A stretch of DNA of 64,000 bases from an uncultured Nitratifractor sp. Lineage in GTDB: Bacteria; Campylobacterota; Campylobacteria; Campylobacterales; Sulfurovaceae. The translations under genes were made by a program, and so were the position numbers. The notes under the pieces were generated by a model. It saw only the letters and a list, made by a program, of their open reading frames with translations, was not told the origin of the DNA and ran no database searches. Below are positions 12,704 through 53,147 of this stretch, piece after piece. The stretch lies in contig CAJXJF010000001.1 in NCBI GenBank assembly GCA_913054475.1, positions 787 through 64,786 on the forward strand, in the 5' to 3' direction. Position 1 is the first letter of the stretch, and each line of letters starts with the position of its first letter.

Positions 12704-12717
12704 GAAAAGGAAGAGGG

Positions 12718-13479: not shown

Positions 13480-13496
13480 CAAGGAGCTTGTGAATT

Positions 13497-21540: not shown

Positions 21541-22308
21541 ATGGAGTCTCTTTATCTGTTTGTGGTATTTGTCTTCGCACTGGCCATAGGTTCGTTCATG
21601 AATGTGGTCATCTATCGTCTGCCCAGAGGCGAAAATCTCGCCTTTCCCTCCTCTCACTGTACCAAGTGCGGGGAGAGTCTGAAGTGGTATCATAATATAC
21701 CTCTATTTTCATGGCTCCTGCTAAGAGGCAGATGTGCCTTCTGCAAAAGCTCCATATCCCCCCGATATCCGCTGATAGAGCTCCTCAACGCCCTGTTATG
21801 GTCCGTTATCTATATCAAAATCGGAGCAGGTTTGGAATTTCTCTTTATCGCCCTCTCCTTTTCGGCACTGCTGGTACTTTCGGCCATAGATTTCGAATAC
21901 TATGCCGTACCCGATTCGGTCAACTTCTTCGCCCTTGCAAGTGCTCTTGCCGCCCTTGGAGCCAAAGCCTACGAAAGCGGAGAGTGGCAAATCCTGCTCA
22001 GTGGTGTGCAAGCGGCCGCCATAGCGGCGGGAGGATTGTGGCTGCTGGCCAAAAGCATCGGCATCATCACACAGAAAGAGGCTATGGGTGGTGCCGATGT
22101 GATAGTGGCTGGCACTATGGCGGCGCTTCTGGGACTCTCGCACTTTCTCGTAGCCATCTTTCTGTCGGCCATCCTAGCGATAGTACCGTCGATAGCTGCA
22201 AAAGATACAATGGTACCCTTCGTACCGTTTCTGGCCCTGGCGACACTCATCACCTATATATACGACGACAGGGCCCAAGCGCTACTGAACTGGATTGTCT
22301 ATGGCTAA
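21541..22308 (+). CDS. pilD: A24-family prepilin leader peptidase
   Basis: N-terminal CxxC...CxxC (HCTKCGE...RCAFCKS), multiple TM helices, and the two Asp blocks SAIDFEYYAVPD and AMGGADV. Confidence 0.85.
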   Translation: MESLYLFVVFVFALAIGSFMNVVIYRLPRGENLAFPSSHCTKCGESLKWYHNIPLFSWLLLRGRCAFCKSSISPRYPLIELLNALLWSVIYIKIGAGLEFLFIALSFSALLVLSAIDFEYYAVPDSVNFFALASALAALGAKAYESGEWQILLSGVQAAAIAAGGLWLLAKSIGIITQKEAMGGADVIVAGTMAALLGLSHFLVAIFLSAILAIVPSIAAKDTMVPFVPFLALATLITYIYDDRAQALLNWIVYG

Positions 22309-31762: not shown

Positions 31763-31776
31763 AAGGAGAGTTGGTG

Positions 31777-33993
31777 ATGGCGAATAAATTGAAACTTTTA
31801 GCCGGGGTGTTGGCCGGCTTGCTTATGGTGAGCGGATGTGGTGATAGGCCTGCAAGCGGAGGTAAAGCGGCAAGCGGTGTTAAAGACAGAGATGGCGATG
31901 GAGTGTTGGATAAGGATGATTCCGCACCAGATGATCCGTGTATTCCGAATATAGCCGCGCCAACCTGTGATCAGGACAAAGATGGAATACCAAATGCAAG
32001 TGACAATGACGATGATGGAGATGGTGTGGCGGATGCAGATGATTCCGCACCAGATGATCCATGTATTCCGAATAAGGCTGCACCAACCTGCGATCAGGAT
32101 AAAGATGGAATACCGAATGCAAGCGACAATGATGATGATGGAGATGGTACACCAGATGCTGACGATCCCGCTCCAAACGATCCGTGTCGTCCCAATATGG
32201 ATGCACCTACCTGCGATCAAGATGGAGATGGGTTGGTAAACAAAGACGATCCAGATCCCACCGACCCTGACCATGATGGAGATGGATATCTCGACGGTGA
32301 AGATCCCGATCCCAACGATCCGTGTGTTCCGAATGTAAATGCACCCACCTGCGATAAAGATGGTGACGGAATACCCAACGGAGACGATCCCAATCCTGGT
32401 CATCCCGACGAAGATAGTGACGGTGACGGTGTTGTAGATGCGAGTGATCCCGATCCCAACGATCCGTGTGTTCCTGATGTAAATGCATCGACTTGCGACC
32501 AAGATGGAGATGGACTGGTAAATAAAGATGATCCCAATCCGACCGATCCCGATAGCGACGGTGACGGTTACAAAGATGGAAGTGATCCCGATCCCAACGA
32601 TCCGTGTGTTCCGAATGTAAATGCACCTACCTGCGATCAGGATGGAGACGGATTGATTAACAAAGACGACCCCGATCCTACCAACTCGGATAGCGACGGT
32701 GACGGCTACAAAGATTCCGACGATACCGATCCCAACGATCCGTGCAAGCCGGACAAAAATGCACCTACCTGCGATCAGGATGGAGACGGATTGATTAACA
32801 AGGACGATCCCGATCCTACCAATCCCGATAGTGATGGTGACGGTTTGAGCGATGGTGAAGAGCTTGAGCTTGGAACCGACCCCAAAAAAGCCGATACCGA
32901 CGGAGACGGGCTCAATGATTACGATGAAACGAAGAAGTATCATACCGATCCACTCAAAGCCGATACCGACGATGACGGCTTGAAAGATGGTGAAGAGGTC
33001 AATAAGTATCACACCGATCCTCTCGATGCCGATACCGACGATGACGGACTTAGTGACGGTGAAGAGATAAGCTTGGGTACCGATCCATTAAAAGCCGATA
33101 CTGATGGTGACGGGGTAAAAGATGGTGATGATACGGCGGATGGAAAGTCGGCGGCTACGAATCCATGTCTTCCCAAGCAAGATCCGGGATATACGGATTA
33201 TGACAACAAAAACGAAATATGGATTGCAGACGATTGTGATGGCGACGGCTATAGCAATGGAGCCGAAGATAATGTTTCTCTTGGTGACGAGCACTATATG
33301 AGTGATCCGTATGACAAGTTGAGTGCATGCTTCTTTTTCGATAACTTGAAGTATTGCGAGGTTCATTCCAAGGATGACCGCATATGGCTGGATAGAAATC
33401 TTGGTGCGACCGAGGTATGTAATTCCGCCAGTGACAGCGAGTGTTATGGATATCTCTATCAGTGGGGTAGGAGTAGTGATGGACATCAGAAGAGAGATAG
33501 TGGCAACCAAGATAGAAACCCCAATGTCTGGCCATATATGTCTGTCAATTTCGAGACAGCATATAAAGATGATCACGATTGGTTGAGTGAGGCTGCGGAC
33601 AATGAGAAATCTGCCCATGTCAAAGAGAGACAAGACTACTGGATGAGTAAGTCCAATGTCGAGCTCGAGCCGATATGCCCCGATGGGTGGTATGTGCCAA
33701 GCAAAGATGAGATAGATGCCATGGTGGCGGCCGAAGGGATAAGTAATGCCACAAATGCATACGCATCTGCACTCAAACTTCCAAGAAATGGGCGAAAGAC
33801 TGAAGGGGGTGGTCAGCCAAGCCTTGAAGGTGATACTGGTTTCCTTTGGAGTACGGATATTTTAGCCGCCAATATAGATGGTAAGAGTGTAAGCGTCTCT
33901 TCCGCATTTATTTACGACGATAGCGGAACGAGTTGGTCTTCGGCGTATAGGGCCAACGGTTATGCGGTACGCTGTATAAAAACTAAGAAATAG
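31777..33993 (+). CDS. lipoprotein with Cys-pair/TSP3 calcium-binding repeats and C-terminal Fibrobacter-type (FISUMP) domain
   Basis: Lipobox LLMVSGC. Seven D-D-P-C-x-P-x4-P-T-C-D-Q-D-G-D-G modules are followed by DTDGDG-type repeats. The C-terminal blocks WLDRNLGA, YGYLYQWGR, CPDGWYVPSKDE and GYAVRCIK are typical of the Fibrobacter succinogenes major paralogous domain. ATG 31777 has AGGAG 8 nt upstream. Confidence 0.8.
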   Translation: MANKLKLLAGVLAGLLMVSGCGDRPASGGKAASGVKDRDGDGVLDKDDSAPDDPCIPNIAAPTCDQDKDGIPNASDNDDDGDGVADADDSAPDDPCIPNKAAPTCDQDKDGIPNASDNDDDGDGTPDADDPAPNDPCRPNMDAPTCDQDGDGLVNKDDPDPTDPDHDGDGYLDGEDPDPNDPCVPNVNAPTCDKDGDGIPNGDDPNPGHPDEDSDGDGVVDASDPDPNDPCVPDVNASTCDQDGDGLVNKDDPNPTDPDSDGDGYKDGSDPDPNDPCVPNVNAPTCDQDGDGLINKDDPDPTNSDSDGDGYKDSDDTDPNDPCKPDKNAPTCDQDGDGLINKDDPDPTNPDSDGDGLSDGEELELGTDPKKADTDGDGLNDYDETKKYHTDPLKADTDDDGLKDGEEVNKYHTDPLDADTDDDGLSDGEEISLGTDPLKADTDGDGVKDGDDTADGKSAATNPCLPKQDPGYTDYDNKNEIWIADDCDGDGYSNGAEDNVSLGDEHYMSDPYDKLSACFFFDNLKYCEVHSKDDRIWLDRNLGATEVCNSASDSECYGYLYQWGRSSDGHQKRDSGNQDRNPNVWPYMSVNFETAYKDDHDWLSEAADNEKSAHVKERQDYWMSKSNVELEPICPDGWYVPSKDEIDAMVAAEGISNATNAYASALKLPRNGRKTEGGGQPSLEGDTGFLWSTDILAANIDGKSVSVSSAFIYDDSGTSWSSAYRANGYAVRCIKTKK
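31885..33170 (+). repeat. in-frame tandem coding repeats (periods 123-138 bp) encoding Asp-rich Ca-binding modules
   Basis: GATTCCGCACCAGATGATCC recurs at 31918 and 32041 (123 bp apart). A ~66-bp block starting ATGCACCTACCTGCGATCAGGATGGAGACGG recurs at 32621 and 32759 (138 bp apart) with two mismatches. Confidence 0.85.
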
Positions 33994-34001
33994 TTATATT
34001 T

Positions 34002-34029
34002 GCAAGGGTGTAGTTCGATACGCCCTTGC
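34002..34029. terminator. hairpin between convergent genes (possible bidirectional terminator)
   Basis: GCAAGGG (34002-34008) pairs with CCCTTGC (34023-34029) around a 14-nt loop. There is no clear U-tract. Confidence 0.3.
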
Positions 34030-34087
34030 CCTGCGTCAGATCTTGGGTGTTTGAAACTTAGTTTCGTACCTATCGATACTCTTCGAG

Positions 34088-34843
34088 TCAATTTATTATG
34101 ATCTTGGTATTTTTCATACCGTGTCTTCTTATGATGCCGTAGAGGGTTTTTGCATTTTTCGGATGTAGTCTGACACATCCGTGGGACGCCGGCCTCCCGA
34201 GTCGTCTTGTGGAATATGTACCGTGAATGGCGTAGCCTCCTTTGAAAAATATCGACCACGGCATGGGAGAGTGGTGGTACTTTTTGGAGTAGTGCATTCT
34301 CTCCAATGTGTATGGTCTATACCTTCCTTTCGGAGTGATGTAGCCTCTTCTGGCAGTCGAGACCCTCCATCTGTACAGTTCTACATCATCGACAACTACA
34401 TCCATAGTCTGTGTATGCTTGTTTATCCTTATTTCGACTCTATGTTCTACGGGATTTCTAAGACTTTTGAGAGAAAGATAGGTTTTTGCATAATTTTCAG
34501 CCGTTGGTAACAGTATCTGTTTCAAAGATATATAACTCTTCGCATCATATCCGAAGTTGTGAAGAGGATTTTCGACCTTTTTAAGCGAAAGATATAAGCG
34601 AGGGTCGTAAGAGTTGGAAGACTCATTGAGCGTAGCGAGAGAAGCGGTATCTACAGAGCCTATCGAGGCAAGATATCTTTTTTTGTTCGTTTCGGCTATC
34701 GTTTCGCTCTTTCGTATAGTGGCGAGCTCTCTTAGAAATCCGCTTTCGGTTTCTTCTATGGCTTTCATGGAGTACTCTCCTGCATACGAAATCGAGGTTC
34801 CGATACCCCATGCGAGCCAACACACTGTTGCGATTTTTCTCAT
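34088..34843 (-). CDS. L,D-transpeptidase (YkuD family)
   Basis: Signal peptide and the catalytic block HGTYSTRRLGRPASHGCVRL. Confidence 0.85.
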   Translation of the reverse strand: MRKIATVCWLAWGIGTSISYAGEYSMKAIEETESGFLRELATIRKSETIAETNKKRYLASIGSVDTASLATLNESSNSYDPRLYLSLKKVENPLHNFGYDAKSYISLKQILLPTAENYAKTYLSLKSLRNPVEHRVEIRINKHTQTMDVVVDDVELYRWRVSTARRGYITPKGRYRPYTLERMHYSKKYHHSPMPWSIFFKGGYAIHGTYSTRRLGRPASHGCVRLHPKNAKTLYGIIRRHGMKNTKIIIN

Positions 34844-34895
34844 ATACCCCTCCTTTCAATAGAAGGGATAATTTTAACACACTATCGCGAGCCAA

Positions 34896-35483
34896 TCAAT
34901 TCGACGAGTTGTTTTCTTTCGTACTATTGGATACTTTTTTGATCTCTATTTTTCTGGATCCACTCTTTTTTGGAAGTGTGACGGTGATGATATCGCCACT
35001 CTCCTTTGCCTCTATCTTCAGCGCATCCGCATCCGGCGGAAGAGTGAAACTCTGCATCGATGTGCTGTTGTTGTAAGTGATGATTTTTCCGTAGTTTCCT
35101 TTTGTACTCTCCTCTTTTCTGTTTTGTGTTATTTTGATATTGAGCATACTGTTTTCGGTGCTTATATCTATTTTCGAATTCTTGATATCGCTCACTTTTA
35201 GCTTCAATTCGTAATGATCCCCCCTGTCCTGAAAACCGCTGCTCAAAATCTCGGAAGAGTTTAGAGTTACCGGCATAGCGCCCATCGTCGGCGTATTGAA
35301 GGCCTTTTCGAAATTGGCGAACACTCTTTGCATCTGCTCTCTCATCATCTGTATCTGCTTCATCTGCATTTCGAAGATTTTATCCATACCGGTGAAGGGG
35401 TCGTCGTTGACTGCAATGTTTGCCCCGAAAGAGAGAGAAGTTCCAACTATCATCGCGGCGACAGTTTTGCTAATATTTTTCAT
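34896..35483 (-). CDS. Hsp20/alpha-crystallin-domain protein with N-terminal signal peptide
   Basis: MKNISKTVAAMIVGTSLSFGAN looks like a Sec signal. The alpha-crystallin-like core runs from DRGDHYELKLKVSDIKNSKIDIS to FTLPPDADALKIEAKESGDIITVTLPKK. Confidence 0.7.
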   Translation of the reverse strand: MKNISKTVAAMIVGTSLSFGANIAVNDDPFTGMDKIFEMQMKQIQMMREQMQRVFANFEKAFNTPTMGAMPVTLNSSEILSSGFQDRGDHYELKLKVSDIKNSKIDISTENSMLNIKITQNRKEESTKGNYGKIITYNNSTSMQSFTLPPDADALKIEAKESGDIITVTLPKKSGSRKIEIKKVSNSTKENNSSN

Positions 35484-35511
35484 TTGAGACTCCTTATAAT
35501 ATATTTTGCAA

Positions 35512-35532
35512 CTTGAAGTCTATAGACTCAAG
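35512..35532. promoter_or_regulatory. HAIR-like inverted repeat (HspR operator type) upstream of the Hsp20 gene
   Basis: Read on the minus strand it is CTTGAGT-CTATAGA-CTTCAAG, against the consensus CTTGAGT-N7-ACTCAAG. One half-site is perfect, the other matches 5/7, and the spacing is exact. It lies 29-49 nt upstream of the Hsp20 start codon. Confidence 0.45.
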
Positions 35533-35611
35533 TTTAACCATATTAAAATAGGCGGGAGATACAGCGAAGGGGTGATACAATCCGCTATCTGTTGATATTG
35601 GGAGATGGGCA

Positions 35612-36735: not shown

Positions 36736-39700
36736 ATGAGAAGATATCTATTGCGGATTGTGTCGATAGTGATACTGTTTGTCGATATGAGTGCAAAGAC
36801 TCTCGTGGTCGATAACAACAGTGGGCCATTTCCTATGCCCTTTCCTATGTGGAGTTGCGAAAACGGGGATTTTGGATGCTTCGGGATAACGCACATGCAA
36901 CCGAATTGCAACTTCTCCACCATCTCGGAGGCTCTGGAATTTCTCGAAGAGGGCGATACTATTCGTATCTGCCCTGGAGATTACAACGAATCTGGTCTCA
37001 AAATCGATAAAAACAATGTACTTTTGCAATCTACGACGGGAAAGACGGAAGATGTGCATGTGGGTACGGGCACGGGAGAAGATATATTCATACTCGATGG
37101 CTTCAGAGAGGGTGTGAGCTTCGACTCTTTTACGATAAAACAACAATCCTCCTCTGCTGCGGCTATCGTTGTGAATGGAGGCGAAGATATCCAATTCGAT
37201 AGACTCTCGATCGAAAGTGAAGGTTACGGTATAGATCAAAATTCGTCAAATGTAAGCAATCTCGATACTTTTAGCATACATGAGAGCAATATAAGTAGCA
37301 AAAAGAGCTCTTTGAGACTGATTATGCCGGAGAATCTCGAAATCACTTCGGTTCGCATGAGCTCCGAAGAAGATTACGCCATCTATCTGAAACAGCCTTC
37401 GGGAGATGTGAACATATCTGCCGACAGCGCCTCGAGAAACACTTTTAGCTCTCGCTCATCTTGCATATATCTCGGAGAGACTTCCCACAACTACTATATT
37501 TCACATTCCGATTTCAACATCACGGGTGTGAACTCGGCCGCCGTCACTTTCGACAAGAGCGACAAGCTCGAAATCTACGATATCAGCGTCAATGCGAACA
37601 ATAAGGGCGTCGGTGTCTGGAGTAGCGGAAGTGTCAGTGGAGATTTCAGTCTCAAAGATAGCAGTATCGACAACTCCAAGAACGAAGCGCTCTATATCGC
37701 GAAGGTAAACGGCAAGGTTCACATTACCGACAACAATATAAGCGGTGCGGGTTATGCGGCGATCTACCTGCCAGATGTCGCCAACGGCGGCGAAATAGAG
37801 AGAAATCTCATACGAAAAGCAGACTATTACGGCTTGCTGCTCTTGAACGACAGTGTATCGAGAAGTTTCAAGATATATCACAACTGTTTTATGCAAAACG
37901 GCATCGCAAATGCCCTCAGCAGAGATACGGATGGCCATTTCGACGACGGTTCCAAAGGAAATTTCTGGGACGATTGGTGTATGGACGGAAGATACGAGAT
38001 AGCCGATATCCCGAAATATGACGAACATCCGATGAGAGAGTGCGACTTGATAGGCAGCTGTACTCCGGTAGAGGGACTCAAGATGAGTACCTACGACATC
38101 TCTTCATATACGGAGCACTTTCCGGATAATCATGAGGAGTTCGAATCCCTAGAAAAAAATTACGCGATCGATTCGGCTAAATTCGGACAGGGAGTATTTT
38201 CGAAAATCGATACGACCGGCAACAACAACAATCCCTTTCATGACGGAACCGACGATAAATATCTAACTATTTTCGAGGGTTTTATCGATATTCCTTCTGA
38301 TGGCAACTATAGCTTCGCCATAAACGGAGACGATGCAGTAGAATTGATAATAGACGGAAAGTGGTACGGCGGCTGGTACTCTGATCATAACAGTGACGGA
38401 ACCGATCACAATGTCAGTTTCATCCTCGATGCCGGCAGGCACAGTATCAAATTCAGACATCAGGATTGGCTTGGTGATGACAGTTATCAGCTATATTGGA
38501 AAAAACCAGGAGATGACGACTACTCCATAGTGCCTTCCGATGCCTTTACGCACTGCTCCATCCCCTTGGCGAAAGTCGATTACAGGATGGATGATTGCAA
38601 CTGGAGCGATGGCCACTCCGATGTGAGAGATAGTAGCGGCAACGCCTACGATGCGACCTCCTATAACGGAGCCCATACAATCGACCCGACGGGCGCTTCT
38701 GGAGTCTGCAGGGTCGGAGCGTTCGACGGTGTCGACGACTATATAGATACGCGAAATTCTTTCGACTTTCCGCAAAATCAATTTACGGTCACGGCATGGA
38801 TCTATCCTCGAAGCGATACGAGCGGGAGGACTCTTTTTATTCAAAGCGACAAGAGTGATCGCAGTGACGGTTTCGGTTCGGCTTTCGGAACCGACGCGAA
38901 ACTCTATTTCTATGTAGGAGATTGGTCTTCGCACAAGGTGGGAATTTCGGTAGATACGAACAGATGGACACATATAGCCGTCACATATGATTCGAATATG
39001 ATGAAGATATATAAAAACGGTCGGCTCGCAAGCTGTCCGCTTAGAGCCAGAGTCGATATCGACTCTGGAGCGAATTTGCTCATAGGCGACAGTATCGCCG
39101 GAGGCGAAGGTGCAGGAGACGATCTATGGAAGGGTTATATCGATGAGTTCAAAATCTTCGATACCGCTTTGGATGCGACCGATATCGAAGAGATATACAA
39201 TTACGAAAAGAGCCGTAGAAACTATGACGGCTCGGCGCGTTATTGTCAGCACTGTGCGATTACACCTTCATGCGATTCCCTTGTGCAGGGTTTGAAGTTG
39301 ACGACCTACGATATATCCTCGTATGAGCAGAGCTATCCATACTGTCATGAAGATTACGATGATCTCGAGAACCGATTCGCAAGCGCTTCGAATAGATTCG
39401 GAGCAGGCTATGTGGATGAAATAGATACGAGCGGGAACAACAACAATCCGTATCATGACGGAGATGACGACTTCTATCTCTCGATATTCGAAGGCTATAT
39501 CTATACCGAAGAGGGTCGATACTCGTTTGCCGTCAACGGTGACGATGCGGTAGAGCTAATTATAGACGGAGACCCCTATGGCTGGTACGGAGGACATGCC
39601 GGTAATGGCGGAAGCTCTCACAATAGAATATATCCCATGCAAAAAGGATACCATAGTCTAAAATTCAGACATGAAGATAGACAAGGTGGCGACAACTATC

Positions 39701-45499: not shown

Positions 45500-46146
45500 G
45501 AAATACTCTTTTAAAAAAAGCCGAAAAAGATCTCCTGAATCTTCCCGTCTATCAGAGGATTGCTCTGATATCGCTGGTATTTTCGTTTATCTTATGGTGC
45601 GGATGGTCTTTGTGGATTTCTGAGTTGAGTTCTGGCTTGCAAAGGATAGAGAGTGAAAATTCGAACCTCAAAAGAGAAATCAAAAAGAAAGATCTACAAA
45701 ACTATAGACGAGTACTTACAAAAATTCGCCAAGAGAGATTGCGACTTCGTGAAATACAGAAGGAGTATGACCGCAAATTGACATATATCAAAAGTAAAGC
45801 CAGAGAGTATGACTTCATGTGGTTCGATGAAGAGCGTTTTCTCCAGCTTTTCGAAAAGATTATGACCCATACCATTCGTCTCGGTATAAGGGTTGACAAG
45901 GTAGAGACACTCCCTATAGTCGCAACAACACGCAACAAATATATCGATACGAAAAAGAGAGTTTCGATAAGAGGTGCCGGAAATTTTGCCGATATTGTAA
46001 AGTTGCTTTATTATATAGAAAGTTTCAAAATTCTAATATCGATAAAATCTGTAGAGATCACTCTCGTAAAAAGTGGTAAAGATAGAGATTTTGAAAATGA
46101 ACTGAGATTCAACATCATAATGGAACAATATGGAGTGTCACTATGA
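45496..46146 (+). CDS. PilO/MshJ-like bitopic assembly protein
   Basis: N-terminal TM (IALISLVFSFILWCGWSLWI), a coiled coil and a C-terminal alpha/beta domain. 216 aa. ATGA overlaps on both sides. Confidence 0.55.
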   Translation: MRNTLLKKAEKDLLNLPVYQRIALISLVFSFILWCGWSLWISELSSGLQRIESENSNLKREIKKKDLQNYRRVLTKIRQERLRLREIQKEYDRKLTYIKSKAREYDFMWFDEERFLQLFEKIMTHTIRLGIRVDKVETLPIVATTRNKYIDTKKRVSIRGAGNFADIVKLLYYIESFKILISIKSVEITLVKSGKDRDFENELRFNIIMEQYGVSL

Positions 46147-46559
46147 AAAAGATATTGATAAGTGCCATCTGCCTATCTATATCCCTACTCCCTCTTCGTG
46201 CGGAAGAGGAATTTATAAAAGAGATTAAAAAGCTCATGAGAGAGAGTGCAAAACACAATACCCCCAAATATCCCGACTTCAAAATATACGATCCGTTCGA
46301 AAGAGTGAAAAAGGTCACAAAAAACTCTAAAAAAATAGATATCAAAGTACTTCCTCCCATGCCTGTCGTAAAGGGAATTATCGATGACAACGCCTTTATA
46401 GATGGCAAATGGAGAAAAGTGGGAGACTCCGTCGATACATACGAAATAGTTTCGATAGAGGGCAAAACGGTCACTCTCAAACTTGGAGAAAATCGATTTA
46501 CCATTACAGTATCCGCTAAATCGGACAACGGACATATAATAATCAAAGATAGAAAATGA
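46143..46559 (+). CDS. small secreted MshK/PilP-like protein
   Basis: Signal peptide MKKILISAICLSISLLPLRA. The C-terminal block AFIDGKWRKVGDSVDTYEIVSIEGKTVTLK is typical of PilP/MshK/GspC-type domains. Confidence 0.5.
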   Translation: MKKILISAICLSISLLPLRAEEEFIKEIKKLMRESAKHNTPKYPDFKIYDPFERVKKVTKNSKKIDIKVLPPMPVVKGIIDDNAFIDGKWRKVGDSVDTYEIVSIEGKTVTLKLGENRFTITVSAKSDNGHIIIKDRK

Positions 46560-48229
46560 AAAAGAAAAAGATAAGATTGGGGGAGCTCCTCCTTCAAAAG
46601 AGACTCATAGACGAGGATGAACTGGAGTATGCCATAAAAGTGCAACAAGAGCTCAACTATACCAAAGCTCTTGGAGAGATTCTAACCGACGAAGGTTTTA
46701 TAAGCGAAAAAGTTCTAGCCGAGCAGATATCGGAACAGATGGGTATAGAGTTCGTAGAACTCTACGCTATCGAACTGAATCAAAAACTGATTGAAAATTT
46801 CCCTTTCAAGGTACTTAAAAACGCAATGGCTCTACCTTTCAAAGAGGATGAGTACGAGATACATATCGCTACATCCGATCCTCTCAACTACAGTGCGCTC
46901 GAATCATTGGAGAAATATACGGATAGCCGTATCATAAGATTTTATATAACCACAAAAGAGGAAGTGCAGCATTTTTTCTATCGAATAGAGACTCTGCAAA
47001 ATACCCTCAAAATAGTGGAGAAGATCAAAAACGAGATAAAAAAGAGCGGCTACAGTGTGGAAAAGAGCGGTACGAGTGCAGTTATGGAGCTCATCCGTCT
47101 CATCATCCGGGTAGCGATAGTGCAAAATGCCAGTGACATCCATATCGAACCGAACAATTACGATATTTCCGTCAGAATCAGAAAAGATGGTGTTTTAAAA
47201 GAGGCTTTTCTCTTCGACATGGCTATCTTTCAGGCCATATCCTCACGCATAAAGATACTCGCGAATCTGGATATATCCGAGAGGCGGAGATCACAAGATG
47301 GCCGTTTCGAGCTCGCTATAGACGGCAAAGATTACGATTTCAGACTATCTACGGTTCCCACCTTGTATGGTGAATCGATAGTTATAAGAATTTTGGATAG
47401 ACAGAAGGTACTTCTGCGCATATCCGAACTAGGATTTGAAAATAGAAATCTTCAGATACTCGAAGATGTGATTCGAGAACCATATGGGATTATTCTTCTC
47501 ACAGGTCCTACTGGAAGCGGCAAAACAACTACACTCTATGCCGCCTTGAACGAGATCAAAAGTATAGAGAACAAGGTTATGACCATAGAAGATCCAGTTG
47601 AGTATAGCCTTCCTCTGATACAGCAAGTCCAGGTAAACGAAACGGTTGGCTACACTTTCGCCGAAGCACTCAGATCTTTTCTGAGACAGGATCCCGATGT
47701 GATAATGATAGGAGAGATTAGAGATCTCGAAACACTCAACGCGGCTGTACAGGCCTCTTTGACGGGGCATCTTGTCTTTTCCACTCTACATACGAACGAT
47801 GCACCGGGTGCGATCAATAGGATGATACAGATGGGGATGCAAAACTATCTCATTGCAGATTCGCTACTTGCAATCGTGGCTCAAAGATTGGTCAGAAAGA
47901 TATGCAAATATTGTAAAAAAGAGGTACAGTATCATAAAAATGTATTGAGAAAGGTTGAAAAATTGCTACCACAGAGAGCGAAGTTCTATCGCGGTAGCGG
48001 TTGTGAAAGGTGTGAGATGACAGGCTATATGGGGCGAACGCTGATTACGGAAATATTCAGAGTGGATGATATGATCTCTCAGAAGATAACAGGCAATGCA
48101 TCCAAGGCTGAAATAACGAGATATGCCATAAAAAAGGGACTTTATAGACCGATGATTGTAGATGGTCTTGGCAAAGCGTTAAATGGTATCACTACGATAG
48201 AAGAGGTAATGAGAGTGACTAGGAGCTGA
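46556..48229 (+). CDS. MshE/GspE-family pilus assembly ATPase with MshEN-type N-terminal domain
   Basis: Walker A GPTGSGKTTTLYA, the Asp/His boxes and a tetracysteine motif (CKYCKK...CERCEMTGYMGR). The N-terminus carries two RLGxxLLxxGLI-type motifs. Confidence 0.9.
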   Translation: MKKKKIRLGELLLQKRLIDEDELEYAIKVQQELNYTKALGEILTDEGFISEKVLAEQISEQMGIEFVELYAIELNQKLIENFPFKVLKNAMALPFKEDEYEIHIATSDPLNYSALESLEKYTDSRIIRFYITTKEEVQHFFYRIETLQNTLKIVEKIKNEIKKSGYSVEKSGTSAVMELIRLIIRVAIVQNASDIHIEPNNYDISVRIRKDGVLKEAFLFDMAIFQAISSRIKILANLDISERRRSQDGRFELAIDGKDYDFRLSTVPTLYGESIVIRILDRQKVLLRISELGFENRNLQILEDVIREPYGIILLTGPTGSGKTTTLYAALNEIKSIENKVMTIEDPVEYSLPLIQQVQVNETVGYTFAEALRSFLRQDPDVIMIGEIRDLETLNAAVQASLTGHLVFSTLHTNDAPGAINRMIQMGMQNYLIADSLLAIVAQRLVRKICKYCKKEVQYHKNVLRKVEKLLPQRAKFYRGSGCERCEMTGYMGRTLITEIFRVDDMISQKITGNASKAEITRYAIKKGLYRPMIVDGLGKALNGITTIEEVMRVTRS

Positions 48230-48231
48230 GT

Positions 48232-49467
48232 GTGCCGTACTATAAAATTCATTATAGAAGTGGAGGTGAAAACAGTTTCATAACAATAGAGGCGGCAGAT
48301 AGATTGGAGGCGATCGAGCATTTCAAGGAGCGCCGTATCGGCATCGCTATAGGCATAGAAGAGGCCAATAGAACCATGTCGATGTTCTTATCGGATATTT
48401 TTCCAAGCGACAGTACCATCCTTAGAAAAACAAGAGTGAATCAAGATGCATACATAGCCGCTTTGAGACTTATAGGCATACTTTTGGATGCCGGTTTGCC
48501 CATTACCACCTGTTTGAGAGAGGTTATCGATTCAAGTGAAGACAAAAAGCTAAAAACGATCTTTCAGGCCATACTCAATGAGCTCGAAAATGGAAAAAGC
48601 CTTTCGGATTCAAGCTATACTTTCAAAGATCAACTGGGTAATCTCTCACTCTCTATGTTTAAATTGGGCGAAGAGACGGGAACACTGGCTGCATCGATAC
48701 TGAAATTGGCGGATATTCTGGAGAAGATTCAGGATAATAGAAGAGCCCTGCTCAAAGCCACCAGATATCCCCTTTTTATAATAGTGGCCATGGCAGTAGC
48801 CTTCGCTATAGTGATAGTGATGGTAGTCCCCGAGTTTCAACAGGTATTCGAAGAGAGCAAGGTAGAGCTCCCCTTTCCTACTCTGATGCTTTTGTGGGTA
48901 GAAAATTCAATAAAATCATATGGTCCCTATATTCTGGGTTTTTCGATACTTTTTAGCTCTCTTTATTCACTGCTCTATAGTCAAATACAAAATATAAAAC
49001 TATATACGGATAGATTTATTTTGAAAATTTATCTCATCGGAATCATAACGAAATATGCTTTTTTGGGAAGATTCATATATATTTTCGATGTGCTGGTGGA
49101 TTCCGGTGTGCCGATAACGAAAGCTCTGGATACCTCGGTAGATGTAGTGGAAAATGAATGGATGAGACAACGACTGAGCGCAATCAAAGATACCATAGAG
49201 GGGGGGCACTCTATGACCCGAGCTTTTAGAGAGAGCGAAATGTTCGAAAGTGTAGTGCTTCAGTTGATCAAAGCTGGAGAAGAAGGCGGTGCTCTAAACA
49301 AGATGCTTCATAAAATTTCAAAATATTATGCCGATAGATATCAATATATCGTGGACAATATAGCGACAATGATAGAGCCGATTTTGATAACGGCTATAGC
49401 CGGTTTCGTTTTGATTCTGGCACTTGGAATCTTCCTACCGATGTGGGGTTTGGTGGATACAATATAA
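48232..49467 (+). CDS. GspF/PilC/MshG-family platform protein
   Basis: Duplicated T2SSF-type domain with three TM helices. 411 aa. The GTG start lies 2 nt after the ATPase stop. Confidence 0.85.
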   Translation: MPYYKIHYRSGGENSFITIEAADRLEAIEHFKERRIGIAIGIEEANRTMSMFLSDIFPSDSTILRKTRVNQDAYIAALRLIGILLDAGLPITTCLREVIDSSEDKKLKTIFQAILNELENGKSLSDSSYTFKDQLGNLSLSMFKLGEETGTLAASILKLADILEKIQDNRRALLKATRYPLFIIVAMAVAFAIVIVMVVPEFQQVFEESKVELPFPTLMLLWVENSIKSYGPYILGFSILFSSLYSLLYSQIQNIKLYTDRFILKIYLIGIITKYAFLGRFIYIFDVLVDSGVPITKALDTSVDVVENEWMRQRLSAIKDTIEGGHSMTRAFRESEMFESVVLQLIKAGEEGGALNKMLHKISKYYADRYQYIVDNIATMIEPILITAIAGFVLILALGIFLPMWGLVDTI

Positions 49468-49579
49468 AAAGGAGTGGCTCTTGGATACGCATAACGCTAC
49501 TATTTTCATAACTATCATAAGTACAATTGTATTATCGTTTTCTATTTGGCTTATCAAAAAGATTACAGATTTATGAGGC

Positions 49580-50023
49580 TTAGTTGTCTATGAGTTCGAA
49601 TATGCCGGTTGAGGGATTGTACTCCCAATAGTCGTTACCATCTGGTTTCCCAGCGATATCTGGGCTCTTCGCGGCCACATCGCCTCCAGAAGCGGGACCG
49701 TAATATTTATCGTCAACTTTTTTCCATCCGATCTTGCCGGCATTTCTCAATATCCTATCAAGAGGATTTCCCAATGTATCTGGATAACCGAATGAGTTCA
49801 ACTCATCTGCAGATATATCGAAACCACAAGTGAAATTACCCTCGTTCACTATCCATTGGCCATGGCAATCATCAAGTGCCGCTTGTACCGCACTCGCCGT
49901 AGCGAGCTCGGCGGAAATTTTGGCATTCTCTCTCAAGCCTCCGAACTTTGGGACGGCTACTGCTGTAAGTATGCCCATAATAACAATGACCATAATCATT
50001 TCAAGCAGAGTGAATGCCCGCAC
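49580..50023 (-). CDS. type IV pilin (MshB/MshA-like)
   Basis: GTG start. N-terminus MRA/FTLLEMIMVIVIMGILTAVAVPKF. 147 aa with one Cys pair. Confidence 0.8.
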   Translation of the reverse strand: MRAFTLLEMIMVIVIMGILTAVAVPKFGGLRENAKISAELATASAVQAALDDCHGQWIVNEGNFTCGFDISADELNSFGYPDTLGNPLDRILRNAGKIGWKKVDDKYYGPASGGDVAAKSPDIAGKPDGNDYWEYNPSTGIFELIDN

Positions 50024-50034
50024 CTCAATCTCTC

Positions 50035-50505
50035 TTAATCGTTTTGACTGCTTAGATGAATCGTGTAGCTTACAGTATTTGGGCTACAGTCGTATCCCTT
50101 GGCCTGCAGAGCCTCTTTCGCCGCCTTGCCTACATCGGTAGTGTCATCACAATAGATAGATACCGTAATGACTCCCATATCATCATAATCGATCGTGGCA
50201 CTAAGATCGTTGTTGCTGTCTGTATAGGTAGCGGTATCGTTTTCGTTGCTTATGGTCCACCTGTTACCTTGAAATTTATATAGATTCGTGATATTCAAAT
50301 CACCCAATTTGATATTGTTGAGTTCGGTGCTATTGAGAAAAGAGCTTGCACCCCCGCTTCCATTCAAATCGGATATCACGCTCACGATATTGCTTACACT
50401 GGCGTTTGCCTTCAGATTCCTGAATTTCGGTATGGCCATAGTCGCCAATATGCCGATAATCACAATTACAAAAATCAGCTCGATCAATGTAAAACCTCTT
50501 CTCAT
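50035..50505 (-). CDS. type IV pilin (MshA-like, probable major subunit)
   Basis: N-terminus MRRG/FTLIELIFVIVIIGILATMAIPKF, a C-terminal Cys pair, and a strong GGGAGG RBS. Confidence 0.8.
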   Translation of the reverse strand: MRRGFTLIELIFVIVIIGILATMAIPKFRNLKANASVSNIVSVISDLNGSGGASSFLNSTELNNIKLGDLNITNLYKFQGNRWTISNENDTATYTDSNNDLSATIDYDDMGVITVSIYCDDTTDVGKAAKEALQAKGYDCSPNTVSYTIHLSSQND

Positions 50506-50542
50506 CTCTTCCTCCCTTTCAAGTTTTCTAAATTACAGCTTC

Positions 50543-50548
50543 ATTATA
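50543..50548 (-). promoter_or_regulatory. candidate -10 box (TATAAT on minus strand) for the pilin genes
   Basis: The reverse complement reads GATGATATAATGAAG, about 38 nt upstream of the pilin ATG at 50505. Confidence 0.3.
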
Positions 50549-50691
50549 TCATCTTTTTGATAAAAAAGAGGTAGCAAAATTCTATTTTCAAGAATCTCCG
50601 CTTGAATGAGAAAGCTCTCTTGCGCTTTTACAGCATTATTTAAGGTACTTCGTGATATACATACGGGTTATTTAAAATCAGGAAAATAGAA

Positions 50692-52533
50692 TTGAATACG
50701 GATCGGAAATTTTTCATTTTTACAGCTACTCTGCTTTTGCTCTTCGCCGTTGCCATCATTATCAACGCCGCCATCAATTTTCGTAGCTACTCTCTCCAAA
50801 ATACCCGCGAAAAATCACAGCTTGTCGCACAGATTGTCCGCGACGGTCTTACAGCCCACATGCTTACCAATACGATGGATAAACGCTCGTTCTTTTTGCG
50901 TTCCATTGCCCGAACGAATGAGATAAAAAACCTTTGGATCGTCCGTTCGGCAAAGGTGGAAAAGCAGTTTGGAAAGGGGATGACGAGTGAAAAGCCCAAA
51001 GATGCGATAGATAGAGAGGTTCTCAGGAAAGGAGAGCCGGTAAAGAGACTTTTCGAAAACAGCGAAGATGCGATTTTTCGTATCACCATCCCCTATATAG
51101 CCTCGGCGTATAGCGATCCGAACTGCTTGGCATGCCATAAGGTAAATGAAGGAGATGTCCTCGGCGCGATCAGTTTGGAGTTCGATATCGGTAGTATTCG
51201 CCGCGAAGGAATCATTACGCTTCTGAAGATAGGAGCTATCACGCTGATTTTCATAATTTTGGCGCTTATAGCGGTTAGAATACTTACGAAACCCTACCTC
51301 GATTTTTTCGGAACTCTTCAAAACTCTCTTAAGCATGCAAGAAAAGGTGATTTCAGTCTCAAGGTACATACGAAAATCAAGGCGACGGATGTGCAAGCTG
51401 TCTGTGAGCTGTACAATATGCTGATCGAAAAGTTTCAAAATACAATCGGTACGATCGAGCATAAACTCGCTATACTATTGAAAGCTTCAAGTGGTAACTG
51501 TCGCGATCCTCTGGAGAAGGCATCTAAAACTATCGATATGCTGTCGGATATACACCGTTTCAAGATGACCATAGAGCACGATTCGAGTGTTGCGCAGATC
51601 TTTGAGCGTATTGCGAAGGTCATCAGGATTGTGATGAAGACGGAGAGCTTTTTGATATACGAAATCGACAGCAAAAGAAATCTAAGGACCATCGTATATA
51701 AAACTGTCGATGAGATTGTCTGCTCTAAAATATCCATGGAGAATGCGCATGAGTGTCGGGCTTTTCGTACCCAAAGTACCGTCTCCTCCGATCTCTTTCC
51801 GCAATTATGCAAAAGCTACACCGGTAGTTTTGCCTTTCACTACTGCATACCCTTCTCCGTAACCGATAGTTACTCCATTGTCATTATGCTCCTATGCGAA
51901 GAGCAAAAAGAGGTTACATATTTCAAAGAAAATCTCTTCACTCTGCGCAACTATCTCGAAAATGCAAAGCCTGTAATAGAGAGTAGACTGTTGATGGAAA
52001 AACTCAAAGATAGATCTCTTCGTGATGGATTGACCGGAGTATATAATAGAAAATTCATCGAAGAGTTTATCGACAAAGCCAATTTGCAGGCGGAGCGTCA
52101 TGCCACCTCCTATGCGGTATTGATGCTCGATATCGACTACTTCAAGCAGGTCAACGATCAATACGGACACGATATTGGTGATAAGTTTATCAAACTTCTT
52201 ACCCAAACTATCGAAAAAAATATAAGAAAAGCAGATATCGTCGCCCGTTACGGCGGAGAGGAGTTTGTTTTGCTACTTCACGAAAGCTCCTTCAAAGGTG
52301 CCGAAGCCGTTGCGGAAAAGATTAGAGACTCTTTTTCCAAAAAAGCCATACTTGTCAACGGCAAGCACATAAACAAAACCGTTTCAATCGGCATAAGTTT
52401 CTTTCCCGAAAATGCAAAAGCCTTACGCGAAGCGATCAAATATGCCGATGTCGCCCTCTACAAAGCGAAAGAGAGCGGCAGAAATCGTGTAGTTGTATTC
52501 AAAGCAGAGATGTATCAGCATGAACAGTATTGA
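50692..52533 (+). CDS. membrane diguanylate cyclase with periplasmic CxxCH (heme c) Tll0287/DUF3365-like sensor, HAMP and GAF-like region
   Basis: Domain order is TM, periplasmic domain, TM. The periplasmic domain contains CLACH (51124-51138) followed by GDVLGAISLEF. The GGDEF domain has an intact GGEEF (52252-52266) and I-site RKAD (52225-52236). TTG start. Confidence 0.8.
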   Translation: MNTDRKFFIFTATLLLLFAVAIIINAAINFRSYSLQNTREKSQLVAQIVRDGLTAHMLTNTMDKRSFFLRSIARTNEIKNLWIVRSAKVEKQFGKGMTSEKPKDAIDREVLRKGEPVKRLFENSEDAIFRITIPYIASAYSDPNCLACHKVNEGDVLGAISLEFDIGSIRREGIITLLKIGAITLIFIILALIAVRILTKPYLDFFGTLQNSLKHARKGDFSLKVHTKIKATDVQAVCELYNMLIEKFQNTIGTIEHKLAILLKASSGNCRDPLEKASKTIDMLSDIHRFKMTIEHDSSVAQIFERIAKVIRIVMKTESFLIYEIDSKRNLRTIVYKTVDEIVCSKISMENAHECRAFRTQSTVSSDLFPQLCKSYTGSFAFHYCIPFSVTDSYSIVIMLLCEEQKEVTYFKENLFTLRNYLENAKPVIESRLLMEKLKDRSLRDGLTGVYNRKFIEEFIDKANLQAERHATSYAVLMLDIDYFKQVNDQYGHDIGDKFIKLLTQTIEKNIRKADIVARYGGEEFVLLLHESSFKGAEAVAEKIRDSFSKKAILVNGKHINKTVSIGISFFPENAKALREAIKYADVALYKAKESGRNRVVVFKAEMYQHEQY

Positions 52534-52580
52534 AATCAAATACTAATCAGCTTATCCGAGTAGGTCTATCTCTGGGGAGC

Positions 52581-52964
52581 TTAGTTTTGTGGGTTTTCCT
52601 GCTCTGCCTGCTCTTTGGCTATCTCTTCGCGTACCATATCCATATCGAGTTCTTTGACCTGAGATATGATATCTTCGAGAGCGTCTTCGGGGAGCATACC
52701 TGCCTGATTGAAGACTACAATCCCCTCTTTGACAATCATAACCGTGGGGATGGAGCGTATCTGAAAGTGTCCTGCGAGAGCCTGTTCCTCTTCGGTATTG
52801 ACTTTGCCAAAAACAATATCTGGGTGTTTCTGGGCCACCTTTTCGAAGATGGGTGCGAAAGATCTGCAGGGTCCGCACCATGGGGCCCAGAAGTCGAGTA
52901 TCGCTATGGGAGCTTTCTGTACTTCTTCGTTGAAGTTTTCGGCGTTGAGATTTACGAGTGCCAT
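52581..52964 (-). CDS. thioredoxin (second copy) with acidic C-terminal tail
   Basis: [11 protein letters not shown] active site. 127 aa. The tail reads MVREEIAKEQAEQENPQN. Confidence 0.85.
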   Translation of the reverse strand: MALVNLNAENFNEEVQKAPIAILDFWAPWCGPCRSFAPIFEKVAQKHPDIVFGKVNTEEEQALAGHFQIRSIPTVMIVKEGIVVFNQAGMLPEDALEDIISQVKELDMDMVREEIAKEQAEQENPQN

Positions 52965-53147
52965 GAATTACCTTTTGTGAAAAATTAAAAACGCAATTAT
53001 GACATATCGAGCTGAAAGCTTGTGGCGCTACCTGCCTAATTTTTCTTTAAAGTCAAATATAGTGGCAAATTCAGCATTTTTTAATGTAGGTAGCCGATAG
53101 AATATTACAATCGGTTATCCGGTCATAAAAAAAGAAGGAGGAACCAG

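What the first reader, a model, noticed from the sequence alone, without database searches (positions are those of the whole stretch)
36736..50505. MSHA-like type IV pilus locus with no secretin, MshM or MshN among its assembly genes
Ten same-strand genes (36736-49467) form one operon. Seven of the nine junctions are start/stop overlaps (41592, 42170, 43051, 43524, 45496, 46143, 46556) and the other two are gaps of 14 and 2 nt.

The gene order is:
- a giant LamG/PA14 protein;
- four prepilin-type proteins;
- a PilM-PilN-like fusion (MshI-like);
- a PilO-like protein (MshJ-like);
- a small MshK/PilP-like protein;
- an MshE-type ATPase;
- a GspF-type platform.

Two pilin genes converge on the operon (49580-50505). 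In the Vibrio and Shewanella msh loci, the secretin mshL and mshM/mshN sit between mshK and mshE. Here the K-like stop overlaps the ATPase start, so there is physically no space for them. The prepilin peptidase lies 15 kb away (21541-22308), inside an envelope-biogenesis gene string. Either the outer-membrane conduit is encoded elsewhere or this machine is organised differently from described MSHA, T2SS or Cts systems.
Basis: partly seen in the sequence, partly recalled or inferred. Interest (0 to 1): 0.65.

Follow-up and report, generated by a model that had tools for sequence, protein, structure and literature searches.

The report
MSHA-type pilus operon lacking its secretin module
A hydrothermal-vent Campylobacterales bacterium carries an intact, transcribed MSHA-type type IV pilus gene cluster from which the block encoding the outer-membrane pore and its two helper proteins was lost long ago, so how the pilus gets out of the cell is unknown.

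Summary
Window 36736-50505 is an MSHA-type type IV pilus locus. It encodes a giant LamG/PA14 protein, four minor prepilins, a PilM-PilN fusion (MshI-like), a PilO/GspM-like protein, a small MshK-like protein, a c-di-GMP-type MshE ATPase and a GspF-type platform. Two pilin genes converge on it. I add an overlooked, conserved 31-aa membrane mini-gene (49481-49576).

Relatives give the key result. Hydrogenimonas and other Campylobacterales loci have the same gene order, but with about 3 kb between K and E. That stretch holds an MshL-type secretin, an AAA_22 ATPase (MshM) and a TPR protein (MshN).

The window and four other loci (ATPase 92-53% identical) lack this block and show no remnants. They group together (84% bootstrap), which points to one ancient loss. 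The remaining genes look functional: non-synonymous change is far below synonymous change (pN << pS), the I/J/K proteins have not sped up, and metatranscriptome contigs match the locus.

Whether a secretin sits elsewhere in the genome could not be tested. A secretin supplied in trans is my preferred reading (about 0.55). A truly secretin-free machine is about 0.2.

Verdict: a new variant of a known kind, of moderate interest.

The parts
36689..36716 (+). Promoter-like site TTGACA-16-TAGAAT. It lies 20 nt upstream of the first gene, in the murG/operon intergenic region.
   Evidence: 11 of 12 consensus matches. This is a consensus match only; the number of such sites in the region is not above the shuffles.
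36736..41595 (+). Giant secreted protein (1619 aa), MshQ-like and the probable pilus-tip adhesin. It has a signal peptide, an N-terminal repetitive region, PA14, Laminin_G_3, a second PA14, and a C-terminal region shared with relatives.
   Evidence: It is homologous to the LamG (+DUF6701) giant proteins that head the canonical Hydrogenimonas loci. The tip-adhesin role is inferred from PMC13533445.
41592..42170 (+). Minor prepilin 1 (192 aa), N-terminus MKRA|FTMLE.
   Evidence: weak IV_pilin_GFxxxE and ComG minor pilin hits. Conserved in all related loci.
42170..43054 (+). Minor prepilin 2 (294 aa from ATG 42170; the longest ORF starts at 42140).
   Evidence: 39-56% identical in relatives.
43051..43527 (+). 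Minor prepilin 3 (158 aa). It has a hydrophobic N-terminal helix but no Glu5 (FSLII), as in GspK/PilX/MshP-type subunits.
   Evidence: read directly from the sequence. Conserved in relatives. The assignment to GspK/MshP type is an inference.
43524..43991 (+). Minor prepilin 4 (155 aa).
   Evidence: N_methyl at its cutoff, and TIGR02532 above its cutoff.
44006..45499 (+). MshI-like PilM-PilN fusion (497 aa): cytoplasmic actin-like domain, transmembrane segment, long coiled coil, and a periplasmic alpha/beta domain.
   Evidence: AF2 pLDDT 93.4. Foldseek top hits are PilM 5eoy/5eou/3jc8/2ych. The family profile hits PilN 3jc8. The family has 139 representative clusters.
45496..46146 (+). MshJ-like PilO/GspM-type protein (216 aa).
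   Evidence: The family profile's top PDB hits are PilO 2rjz, 5uvr and 3jc8. Pfam T2SSM hits 5 of 13 members and PilO hits 3 of 13.
46143..46559 (+). MshK-like small periplasmic protein (138 aa) with a signal peptide, a conserved YDPF motif and a C-terminal beta-rich domain.
   Evidence: It is the positional and sequence homologue of the gene just before the secretin in canonical loci. Weak Pfam T2SSB (8 of 14 members) and T2SSC (3 of 14) hits. The AF2 single-sequence model failed.
46556..48229 (+). MshE-type assembly ATPase (557 aa) with an N-terminal c-di-GMP-binding MshEN domain.
   Evidence: T2SSE 429 bits, MshEN, NF053729 at 44.8 bits against a cutoff of 38. It is 63-66% identical to the Hydrogenimonas ATPases.
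48232..49467 (+). MshG/GspF-type inner-membrane platform (411 aa).
   Evidence: T2SSF, two copies.
49481..49576 (+). Conserved 31-aa single-transmembrane mini-protein (TTG start, AGGAG 7 nt upstream), MDTHNATIFITIISTIVLSFSIWLIKKITDL.
   Evidence: Homologous mini-ORFs follow the platform gene in L002, L006, L009, L011, L028, L031, L033, L034 and L036. Gene callers found it in L002, L006 and L033.
49580..50023 (-). Pilin (147 aa), N-terminus MRA|FTLLE. Convergent with the operon.
   Evidence: 47-59% identical in relatives. Metatranscriptome contigs reach their highest depth over its 3' end.
50035..50505 (-). Pilin (156 aa), N-terminus MRRG|FTLIE.
   Evidence: N_methyl E 2.5e-7, above its cutoff.
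21541..22308 (+). Prepilin peptidase (PilD type) encoded apart from the locus, between uppS and an lptF/G-type gene.
   Evidence: MSH loci generally lack a peptidase (PMC6668835).

Best explanation
This is a Campylobacterales MSHA-type type IV pilus system. Its ancestor had the order Q, four minor pilins, I, J, K, L (secretin), M, N, E, G, mini-gene, then two convergent pilins. One ancestral deletion or relocation removed the secretin module L-M-N as a block, so K now abuts E.

**Proposed working of what remains.**
- The separately encoded prepilin peptidase processes six prepilins.
- The four minor pilins plus the giant LamG/PA14 protein form a priming and tip-adhesin complex.
- The GspF-type platform and the MshE ATPase polymerise the two pilins when c-di-GMP binds the MshEN domain.
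- The PilM-N fusion, the PilO-like protein and MshK form the alignment subcomplex.

**Shown:** gene identities, the block loss, its age, purifying selection, and matches to metatranscriptome contigs.

**Inferred:** the pilus still reaches the surface through a secretin encoded elsewhere in the genome. That secretin could be a relocated mshL or one borrowed from another type IV filament system, to which the retained MshK would dock.
For: **Domain and fold assignments:**

**Canonical relatives.** They have identical flanking order and carry Secretin+Secretin_N_2, AAA_22 and TPR genes between K and E. These are L006, L008-L012, L025-L028 and L031. The secretin's best family match is MshL.

**Secretin-less loci.** K is directly followed by E (overlap, or a gap of at most 10 nt) in the window, L036, L033, L034/35 and L002/3. 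They form one clan with 84% NJ bootstrap on I+K+E+G.

**No remnants.** No L, M or N remnants appear in six-frame HMM searches, and the positive controls are strong.

**Signs of continued function.**
- Selection: pN 0.05-0.27 against pS 0.6-0.8 for all 12 genes, window versus L036.
- I/J/K identity relative to E/G is the same as between canonical lineages.
- Metatranscriptome contigs at 99% identity or more cover Q, the mp4/I and I/J junctions, E, the mini-gene and the pilins.

**Why a conduit is expected.**
- The cell is a diderm: LptF/G, BamD and OmpA genes are in the window.
- A 1619-aa lectin-domain adhesin under purifying selection, and a retained secretin-docking-type K protein, only make sense if an outer-membrane conduit exists (inference).
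Against: - No secretin was found anywhere in the 64-kb window or in about 60 kb of relatives' flanks. The rest of the genome could not be searched, so the trans-secretin step is untested.
- MSH systems are reported as almost always single-locus (PMC6668835). In 82 Campylobacterota genomes all T4P clusters were reported to have the order pilMNOPQ (PMC11870540). A split system would therefore itself be unusual.
- The helper genes mshM and mshN were lost along with the secretin. That fits removal of the whole outer-membrane function as well as it fits relocation.
- The K assignment to a secretin-binding fold is weak.
- The NJ clan could be affected by long branches, since single-gene support is only 15-67%.
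- The RNA runs are labelled 'RNA?' and may contain DNA.
Confidence: 0.55

Rival explanations
1. The machine is truly secretin-free. After losing L-M-N, this clade runs an MSHA-type apparatus with no secretin at all. Either the fibre stays in the periplasm (an endopilus or piston with a new role), or it crosses the outer membrane by an unrecognised, non-secretin route.
For: - The secretin and both of its presumed assembly helpers (the GspA-like AAA_22 protein and the TadD-like TPR protein) went together (PMC6668835 for MshN~TadD).
- No secretin lies in the window or in relatives' flanks.
- The arrangement has been stable across deep divergence, down to 53% ATPase identity.
- Campylobacterota are already known to have co-opted PilMNO homologues for a secretin-less periplasmic structure, the flagellar cage (PMC11870540).
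Against: - Two major pilins, four minor pilins and a huge lectin-domain adhesin are kept under purifying selection. That is hard to explain for a fibre that never reaches the surface.
- No new gene is consistently linked to the secretin-less loci that could serve as an alternative conduit.
- K, a member of the family that precedes and presumably docks the secretin, is retained at an unchanged relative rate.
- Whole genomes were not examined.
Confidence: 0.2
2. The locus is a decaying remnant. Deletion of the secretin module inactivated the system, and what is left is drifting toward loss.
For: - Partly deleted loci are a recognised source of incomplete TFF detections (PMC6668835).
- L002 has also lost the giant protein, and L033 lacks the convergent pilins next to the platform gene.
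Against: - All 13 genes are intact in the window. The core is intact in five lineages that have diverged to 53% (ATPase) and 29% (MshI) identity.
- pN is far below pS for every gene.
- Translationally coupled junctions are preserved.
- Metatranscriptome contigs match the locus.
Confidence: 0.07
3. It is a canonical, already characterised system that has been mislabelled: a Gsp-type T2SS, a PilMNOPQ T4aP, or the Campylobacter Cts competence system.
For: The ATPase scores almost equally on the GspE and PilB models (525 and 523 bits). Sources annotate relatives as GspE/GspD.
Against: - Both equivalog scores are below their cutoffs (630 and 676).
- The MshEN c-di-GMP domain is present.
- The relatives' secretin is best matched by MshL.
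- There is no GspC, GspL, GspD or GspG-type pseudopilin.
- Gene order matches the msh I-J-K-(L-M-N)-E-G order, plus an MshQ-like giant protein.
- Cts was not compared directly, because no reference sequences were at hand.
Confidence: 0.03

Closest known systems
MSHA (MSH) pilus of Vibrio cholerae and Shewanella, as defined in the TFF superfamily study (PMC6668835)
   Same: - An MshE ATPase with a c-di-GMP-binding MshEN domain, and an MshG platform.
- I-J-K alignment genes upstream of E-G.
- Several minor pilins and a giant LamG-containing MshQ-like protein.
- No prepilin peptidase in the locus.
- A single compact locus.
   Different: - mshL (secretin), mshM and mshN are absent, and K abuts E.
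- The giant protein and minor pilins lie upstream of I rather than in a downstream structural operon.
- The major pilins are convergent.
- MshI/J/K are too diverged for any curated profile to hit.
- A 31-aa mini-gene follows the platform gene.
Campylobacterota T4P/MSH clusters with a fused pilMN gene and the order pilMNOPQ (PMC11870540). Examples here are the Hydrogenimonas loci L009, L011, L012 and L031.
   Same: - The same gene order on both sides of the gap: Q, four minor pilins, I, J, K ... E, G, mini-gene, then two convergent pilins.
- Homologous throughout: E 63-66%, G about 50%, I/J/K 27-33%.
- The pilM-pilN fusion is shared.
   Different: These relatives carry about 3 kb with secretin (Secretin_N_2 + Secretin), AAA_22 and TPR genes between K and E. 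The window clade has none.
Systems that use a secretin encoded outside their own locus. P. aeruginosa XqhA substituting for XcpQ, and filamentous phages that use a host secretin, are both cited from my own knowledge.
   Same: They are a precedent for a type IV filament-type machine or filament passing through a secretin that its own gene cluster does not encode.
   Different: Those cases are backups or parasitic use. Here a whole clade would depend on a trans-encoded secretin permanently, and no such secretin has been identified yet.
FcpMNO flagellar cage of Campylobacterota (PMC11870540)
   Same: PilM/N/O homologues working without a secretin, in the same phylum.
   Different: fcpMNO is a separate three-gene operon next to miaB and is tied to flagellar genes. 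The window genes sit in an operon with pilins, an assembly ATPase and a platform.

Membership tests
MSH (MSHA-type pilus; TXSScan/MacSyFinder definition in PMC6668835) | MshE assembly ATPase (mandatory) | tested here: met
   T2SSE + MshEN + NF053729 c-di-GMP motif, the last above its cutoff.
MSH (MSHA-type pilus; TXSScan/MacSyFinder definition in PMC6668835) | MshG platform (mandatory) | tested here: met
   T2SSF, two copies; GspF-like at 231 bits.
MSH (MSHA-type pilus; TXSScan/MacSyFinder definition in PMC6668835) | MshA-type pilin with a class III signal peptide (mandatory) | tested here: met
   Two pilins with MRRG|FTLIE and MRA|FTLLE N-termini and N_methyl hits. MSH-specific pilin profiles were not available.
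MSH (MSHA-type pilus; TXSScan/MacSyFinder definition in PMC6668835) | MshL secretin (mandatory) | tested here: not met
   There is no Secretin domain in any operon product or in any large ORF of the window. The six-frame HMM search was negative and the controls scored 594-800 bits. The rest of the genome was not searched.
MSH (MSHA-type pilus; TXSScan/MacSyFinder definition in PMC6668835) | MshM AAA ATPase (mandatory) and MshN TPR protein (accessory) | tested here: not met
   Six-frame HMM search with profiles from five canonical relatives. Only chance-level or P-loop hits were found, and the controls scored 257-410 bits.
MSH (MSHA-type pilus; TXSScan/MacSyFinder definition in PMC6668835) | MshI/J/K alignment genes upstream of the ATPase | tested here: met
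   They are homologous to the I-J-K genes that precede the secretin in canonical loci. Fold and profile evidence supports PilM-N and PilO. K is supported mainly by synteny.
MSH (MSHA-type pilus; TXSScan/MacSyFinder definition in PMC6668835) | Model quorum: at least 3 of the 5 mandatory genes and at least 4 genes in all | not tested
   By count (mshA, mshE, mshG plus accessories) the quorum stated in PMC6668835 would be reached, but MacSyFinder was not run.
Type II secretion system (Gsp) | GspE equivalog, GspD secretin, GspC/L/M and a GspG major pseudopilin | tested here: not met
   GspE scores 525 bits against a cutoff of 630. GspG reaches only E 0.084 on one minor pilin. There is no GspD, GspC or GspL, and only a weak GspM-like signal.
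Type IVa pilus (PilBCD, PilMNOPQ, PilT) | PilB equivalog, PilQ secretin and unfused PilM/PilN | tested here: not met
   PilB scores 523 bits against a cutoff of 676. There is no secretin. PilM and PilN are fused. No PilT was seen in the ORFs scanned.
Campylobacter Cts competence system | The CtsD secretin, CtsE/CtsP ATPases, CtsF, CtsG and CtsX gene set | not tested
The gene content seen here (MshEN ATPase, PilM-N fusion, giant LamG protein) does not resemble it, judging from my own knowledge.
FcpMNO flagellar cage (PMC11870540) | A stand-alone pilMNO-like operon next to miaB, without pilins, ATPase or platform | tested here: not met
   The I and J genes are translationally coupled to pilin, ATPase and platform genes.

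The most novel reading that the evidence does not exclude
A whole clade of diderm, vent-dwelling Campylobacterales builds and uses an MSHA-type pilus machine with no secretin anywhere in the genome. That would imply either a non-secretin route across the outer membrane or a periplasm-confined type IV filament with a new function.
Probability: 0.18. Interest if true: 0.85.

Novelty: new variant of a known kind. Interest (0 to 1): 0.5.

Why it matters
In diderm bacteria every described type IV pilus, MSHA pilus and T2SS needs a secretin. MSH systems are regarded as single-locus units with mshL and mshM as mandatory genes.

Here the secretin and both of its putative assembly helpers were removed as one module. 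The other thirteen genes have then been kept intact under purifying selection through deep divergence.

- **If the secretin is supplied in trans,** this is a natural example of modular, exchangeable outer-membrane conduits. It also gives a handle on what MshK, MshM and MshN each contribute.
- **If there is no secretin,** it would be a new way of operating a type IV filament in a diderm.

Either way, the locus pair (the canonical Hydrogenimonas type versus the window type) is a clean natural deletion experiment. The conserved 31-aa mini-protein after the platform gene is an unannotated candidate component of Campylobacterota MSH machines.

Tried and rejected
- **First genome-contig scan.** A three-sequence MshI alignment found nothing. 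Alignments A2 and A3 were too diverse for pattern design. A six-sequence alignment then worked.
- **The search for homologous proteins on MshI.** The word-index search gave only three hits. The exhaustive HMMER search was needed to reach the canonical relatives.
- **Curated profiles.** Pfam and NCBIfam give nothing significant for I, J and K of the window itself, or for I/J/K of canonical relatives.
- **AlphaFold2 of MshK.** The single-sequence model was unusable (pLDDT 41), so no fold search was run. The PDB profile search for K found nothing meaningful.
- **Looking for a relocated secretin in the same organism.**
  - The 120 best MshL homologues listed stop at about 45% identity. A relocated copy from this clade is expected at about 41-43%, by analogy with L009 versus L025 and L006, so sample-by-sample look-ups were not worthwhile.
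  - Laying run contigs on foreign secretin DNA would need at least 80% nucleotide identity, so I did not try it.
- **Independent double loss (window lineage and L002 lineage).** I considered this after the pairwise identities. I set it aside after the 11-taxon trees, though not with high confidence.
- **Literature.** Searches for secretin-independent pili and for Hydrogenimonas pili returned nothing.
- **Assembly artefact.** Rejected.
Full report
**1. Observation**

The ORF table reproduces the finding. Ten same-strand ORFs run from 36736 to 49467. Seven junctions are start/stop overlaps and two are gaps of 14 and 2 nt. Two convergent ORFs lie at 49580-50023 and 50035-50505.

The second prepilin's longest ORF begins at 42140.

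Profile searches confirm:
- Laminin_G_3 and two PA14 domains in the 1619-aa protein;
- T2SSE plus MshEN in the ATPase, with the MshE-related c-di-GMP motif model NF053729 above its cutoff;
- two T2SSF domains in the platform;
- N-methylation motifs in the pilins.

The ATPase N-terminus shows both 24-residue RLGxxLL...Q-type motifs when read directly.

The prepilin peptidase at 21541-22308 is real. It sits between uppS and an lptF/G-type gene.

**2. The three proteins without profile hits**

*The 497-aa protein.* It had only three word-index relatives. An exhaustive HMMER search found a family of 139 representative clusters, mostly about 490 aa. With a 77-sequence alignment, AlphaFold2 gave a confident model (pLDDT 93.4). 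It has an actin-like domain, a transmembrane segment, a helix of about 110 residues and a C-terminal alpha/beta domain. Foldseek's best PDB matches are PilM from P. aeruginosa, M. xanthus and Thermus (E 1e-12 to 4e-9). The family profile hits M. xanthus PilN over the C-terminal part. So this is a PilM-PilN fusion.

*The 216-aa family.* Its top PDB hits are PilO. Pfam T2SSM or PilO hits appear in 5 and 3 of 13 members.

*The 138-aa family.* It has a signal peptide, a YDPF motif and a conserved C-terminal domain. It gives only weak T2SSB and T2SSC hits. A single-sequence AF2 model failed. Its MshK label rests mainly on synteny.

**3. Relatives decide what the locus is**

Contexts of distant family members, a GTDB scan and a metagenome scan were compared gene by gene.

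Loci from Hydrogenimonas MAGs (L009, L011), other Campylobacterales (L010, L012) and several metagenome contigs (L006, L025-L028, L031) have the same order as the window: giant LamG protein, four minor pilins, I, J, K, then E, G and two convergent pilins. They differ in having about 3 kb between K and E. That stretch encodes:
- a protein with Secretin_N_2 plus Secretin domains;
- an AAA_22 ATPase;
- a TPR/ANAPC3 protein.

The secretin's best NCBIfam match is pilus_MshL. These are therefore MSHA-type loci with the classical I-J-K-L-M-N-E-G core.

This agrees with two published reports. MSH systems have been found in Epsilonproteobacteria (PMC6668835). About half of Campylobacterota carry a T4P cluster with fused pilMN and the order pilMNOPQ (PMC11870540).

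**4. The secretin module is missing from a whole clade**

K is followed directly by E, with an overlap or a gap of at most 10 nt, in:
- the window;
- L036 (ATPase 92% identical);
- L033 (78%);
- L034/L035 (77%);
- L002/L003 (53%; NCBI MAG GCA_027026235.1).

The window's own junction is identical in six independent assemblies.

I built profiles from 40 MshL-type secretins and from five MshM and five MshN sequences. None of them finds anything in any reading frame of the 64-kb window or of the four other loci. The same profiles score 257-800 bits on complete control genes. No other large ORF of the window is a secretin.

On a concatenated I+K+E+G alignment of 11 loci, the four secretin-less loci form one group in 84% of NJ bootstraps. 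Single-gene support is lower and the trees are unrooted. The most economical reading is one ancient removal of L-M-N as a block.

**5. The remainder looks functional**

- Between the window and L036, synonymous sites are saturated (pS 0.6-0.8) while non-synonymous differences are 0.05-0.27 for every gene, I, J and K included.
- At comparable ATPase divergence, I/J/K identities between the window and canonical loci (30/31/30%) match those between canonical lineages (28-33/27/33-38%). The alignment proteins have not been released from constraint.
- Contigs from runs labelled metatranscriptomic match at 99% or better. They cover parts of the giant gene, the mp4/I and I/J junctions, the ATPase, and the 3' end of the locus, with the highest depth over the mini-gene and the first pilin. 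DNA carry-over cannot be excluded.
- A strong sigma-70-like match sits 20 nt before the first ATG.

**6. Mechanism**

*Shown:* the parts list, the loss of the secretin module, and its conservation.

*Inferred from established knowledge of type IV filaments:*
- the four minor pilins (one lacking Glu5) prime assembly;
- they carry the giant LamG/PA14 protein at the tip, as proposed for MshQ (PMC13533445);
- MshE, gated by c-di-GMP, drives polymerisation of the pilins on the platform;
- the PilM-N fusion, the PilO-like protein and MshK form the alignment complex.

The organism is a diderm: LptF/G, BamD and OmpA genes are in the window. A surface pilus therefore needs a conduit.

I favour a secretin encoded elsewhere (0.55). 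A very large lectin-type adhesin and an MshK of unchanged evolutionary rate are both retained, and no new gene is consistently linked to the secretin-less loci.

A truly secretin-free machine (0.2) is not excluded. The secretin's presumed helpers were lost along with it, and this phylum has already redeployed PilMNO homologues in a secretin-less periplasmic structure (PMC11870540).

A decaying remnant (0.07), a mislabelled canonical system (0.03) and an assembly artefact are disfavoured by the data above.

**7. What could not be done**

No tool allowed a search of the rest of this genome, or of the relatives' bins, for secretins. The secretin list obtained does not reach the identity range expected for a relocated copy. 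This is the decisive missing step.

**8. Taxon and habitat**

The DNA occurs in hydrothermal-vent and subsurface metagenomes. The 90% cluster of its SucD includes Hydrogenimonas, Nitratifractor and Campylobacterales entries. The closest named ATPase relatives are Hydrogenimonas.

**9. Verdict**

This is a known kind of machine (MSHA-type pilus, Campylobacterota flavour) in a variant I did not find described: a clade-wide, ancient, clean loss of the secretin-MshM-MshN module from an otherwise intact and conserved locus.

Interest is moderate. It would rise sharply if the genomes prove to have no secretin.

Noticed in passing
window 49481-49576 (+); also L002 13368-13463, L006 9252-9347, L033 3625-3720: A conserved 31-aa single-transmembrane mini-ORF lies immediately after the platform gene. 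Consensus: M-[ED]-x-E-x-G-T-I-...-W-I-I-K-K-I-T. It is present in both secretin-containing and secretin-less Campylobacterales loci and sits under the highest metatranscriptome contig depth. It is a possible unrecognised machine component.
   Followed up: partly
window 50692-52533 (+) and 24110-25858 (-): A GGDEF diguanylate cyclase with an N-terminal membrane or sensor region lies directly beside the pilin genes. A GGDEF-EAL protein lies 12 kb upstream of the operon. Both fit c-di-GMP control of the MshEN ATPase. The adjacency is not conserved in L036, where a ResB/CcsA gene occupies that position.
   Followed up: partly
window 36736-41595; L001 1721-4832; L002 5113-5346; L028 1980-7073: The giant tip-protein gene is highly modular. 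The window and L036 have an N-terminal repetitive region plus PA14-LamG-PA14. L001 lacks the PA14/LamG part and is split into 667- and 353-aa ORFs. L002 has no giant gene at all. Canonical loci range from about 880 to about 1700 aa.
   Followed up: partly
L036 1-21674 compared with window 34000-53000: In the closest other species the whole pilus locus sits in a different chromosomal neighbourhood. There a UbiD-family gene lies upstream and ResB/PEPCK genes downstream. In the window the neighbours are murG upstream and GGDEF/thioredoxin/Lon downstream. The locus has moved as a unit, or the genome has been rearranged around it.
   Followed up: no
window 43051-43527: The third minor prepilin lacks the conserved Glu5 (FSLIITL). 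This is typical of GspK/PilX/MshP-type tip subunits.
   Followed up: no
window 30749-33993: An OmpA-family protein (337 aa) is translationally coupled to a 744-aa protein with four bacterial thrombospondin type 3 (TSP3) calcium-binding repeats. This may be a cell-surface pair. It lies 3 kb upstream of the pilus operon, on the same strand.
   Followed up: no
window 11104-16688: Two tandem proteins with PilJ/NIT-type sensor domains are followed by a 1063-aa hybrid histidine kinase with a NIT (nitrate/nitrite-sensing) domain and a receiver domain. Despite the Pfam name, nothing ties these genes to the pilus.
   Followed up: no
L002 13551-14753: In the most divergent secretin-less locus, an AAA_14/DUF4143 ATPase gene is inserted between the platform/mini-gene and the convergent pilins.
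   Followed up: no
L033 3758-9634: In this secretin-less relative the platform gene and mini-gene are followed by cobT-like, PALP and ABC-transporter genes rather than by the two convergent pilins. The major pilins must be encoded elsewhere there.
   Followed up: no
window 15-1277, 5495-7759: A PKD-domain protein and the hydrogenase maturation genes hypD and hypE lie at the 5' end of the window. This fits a hydrogen-oxidising vent organism.
   Followed up: no
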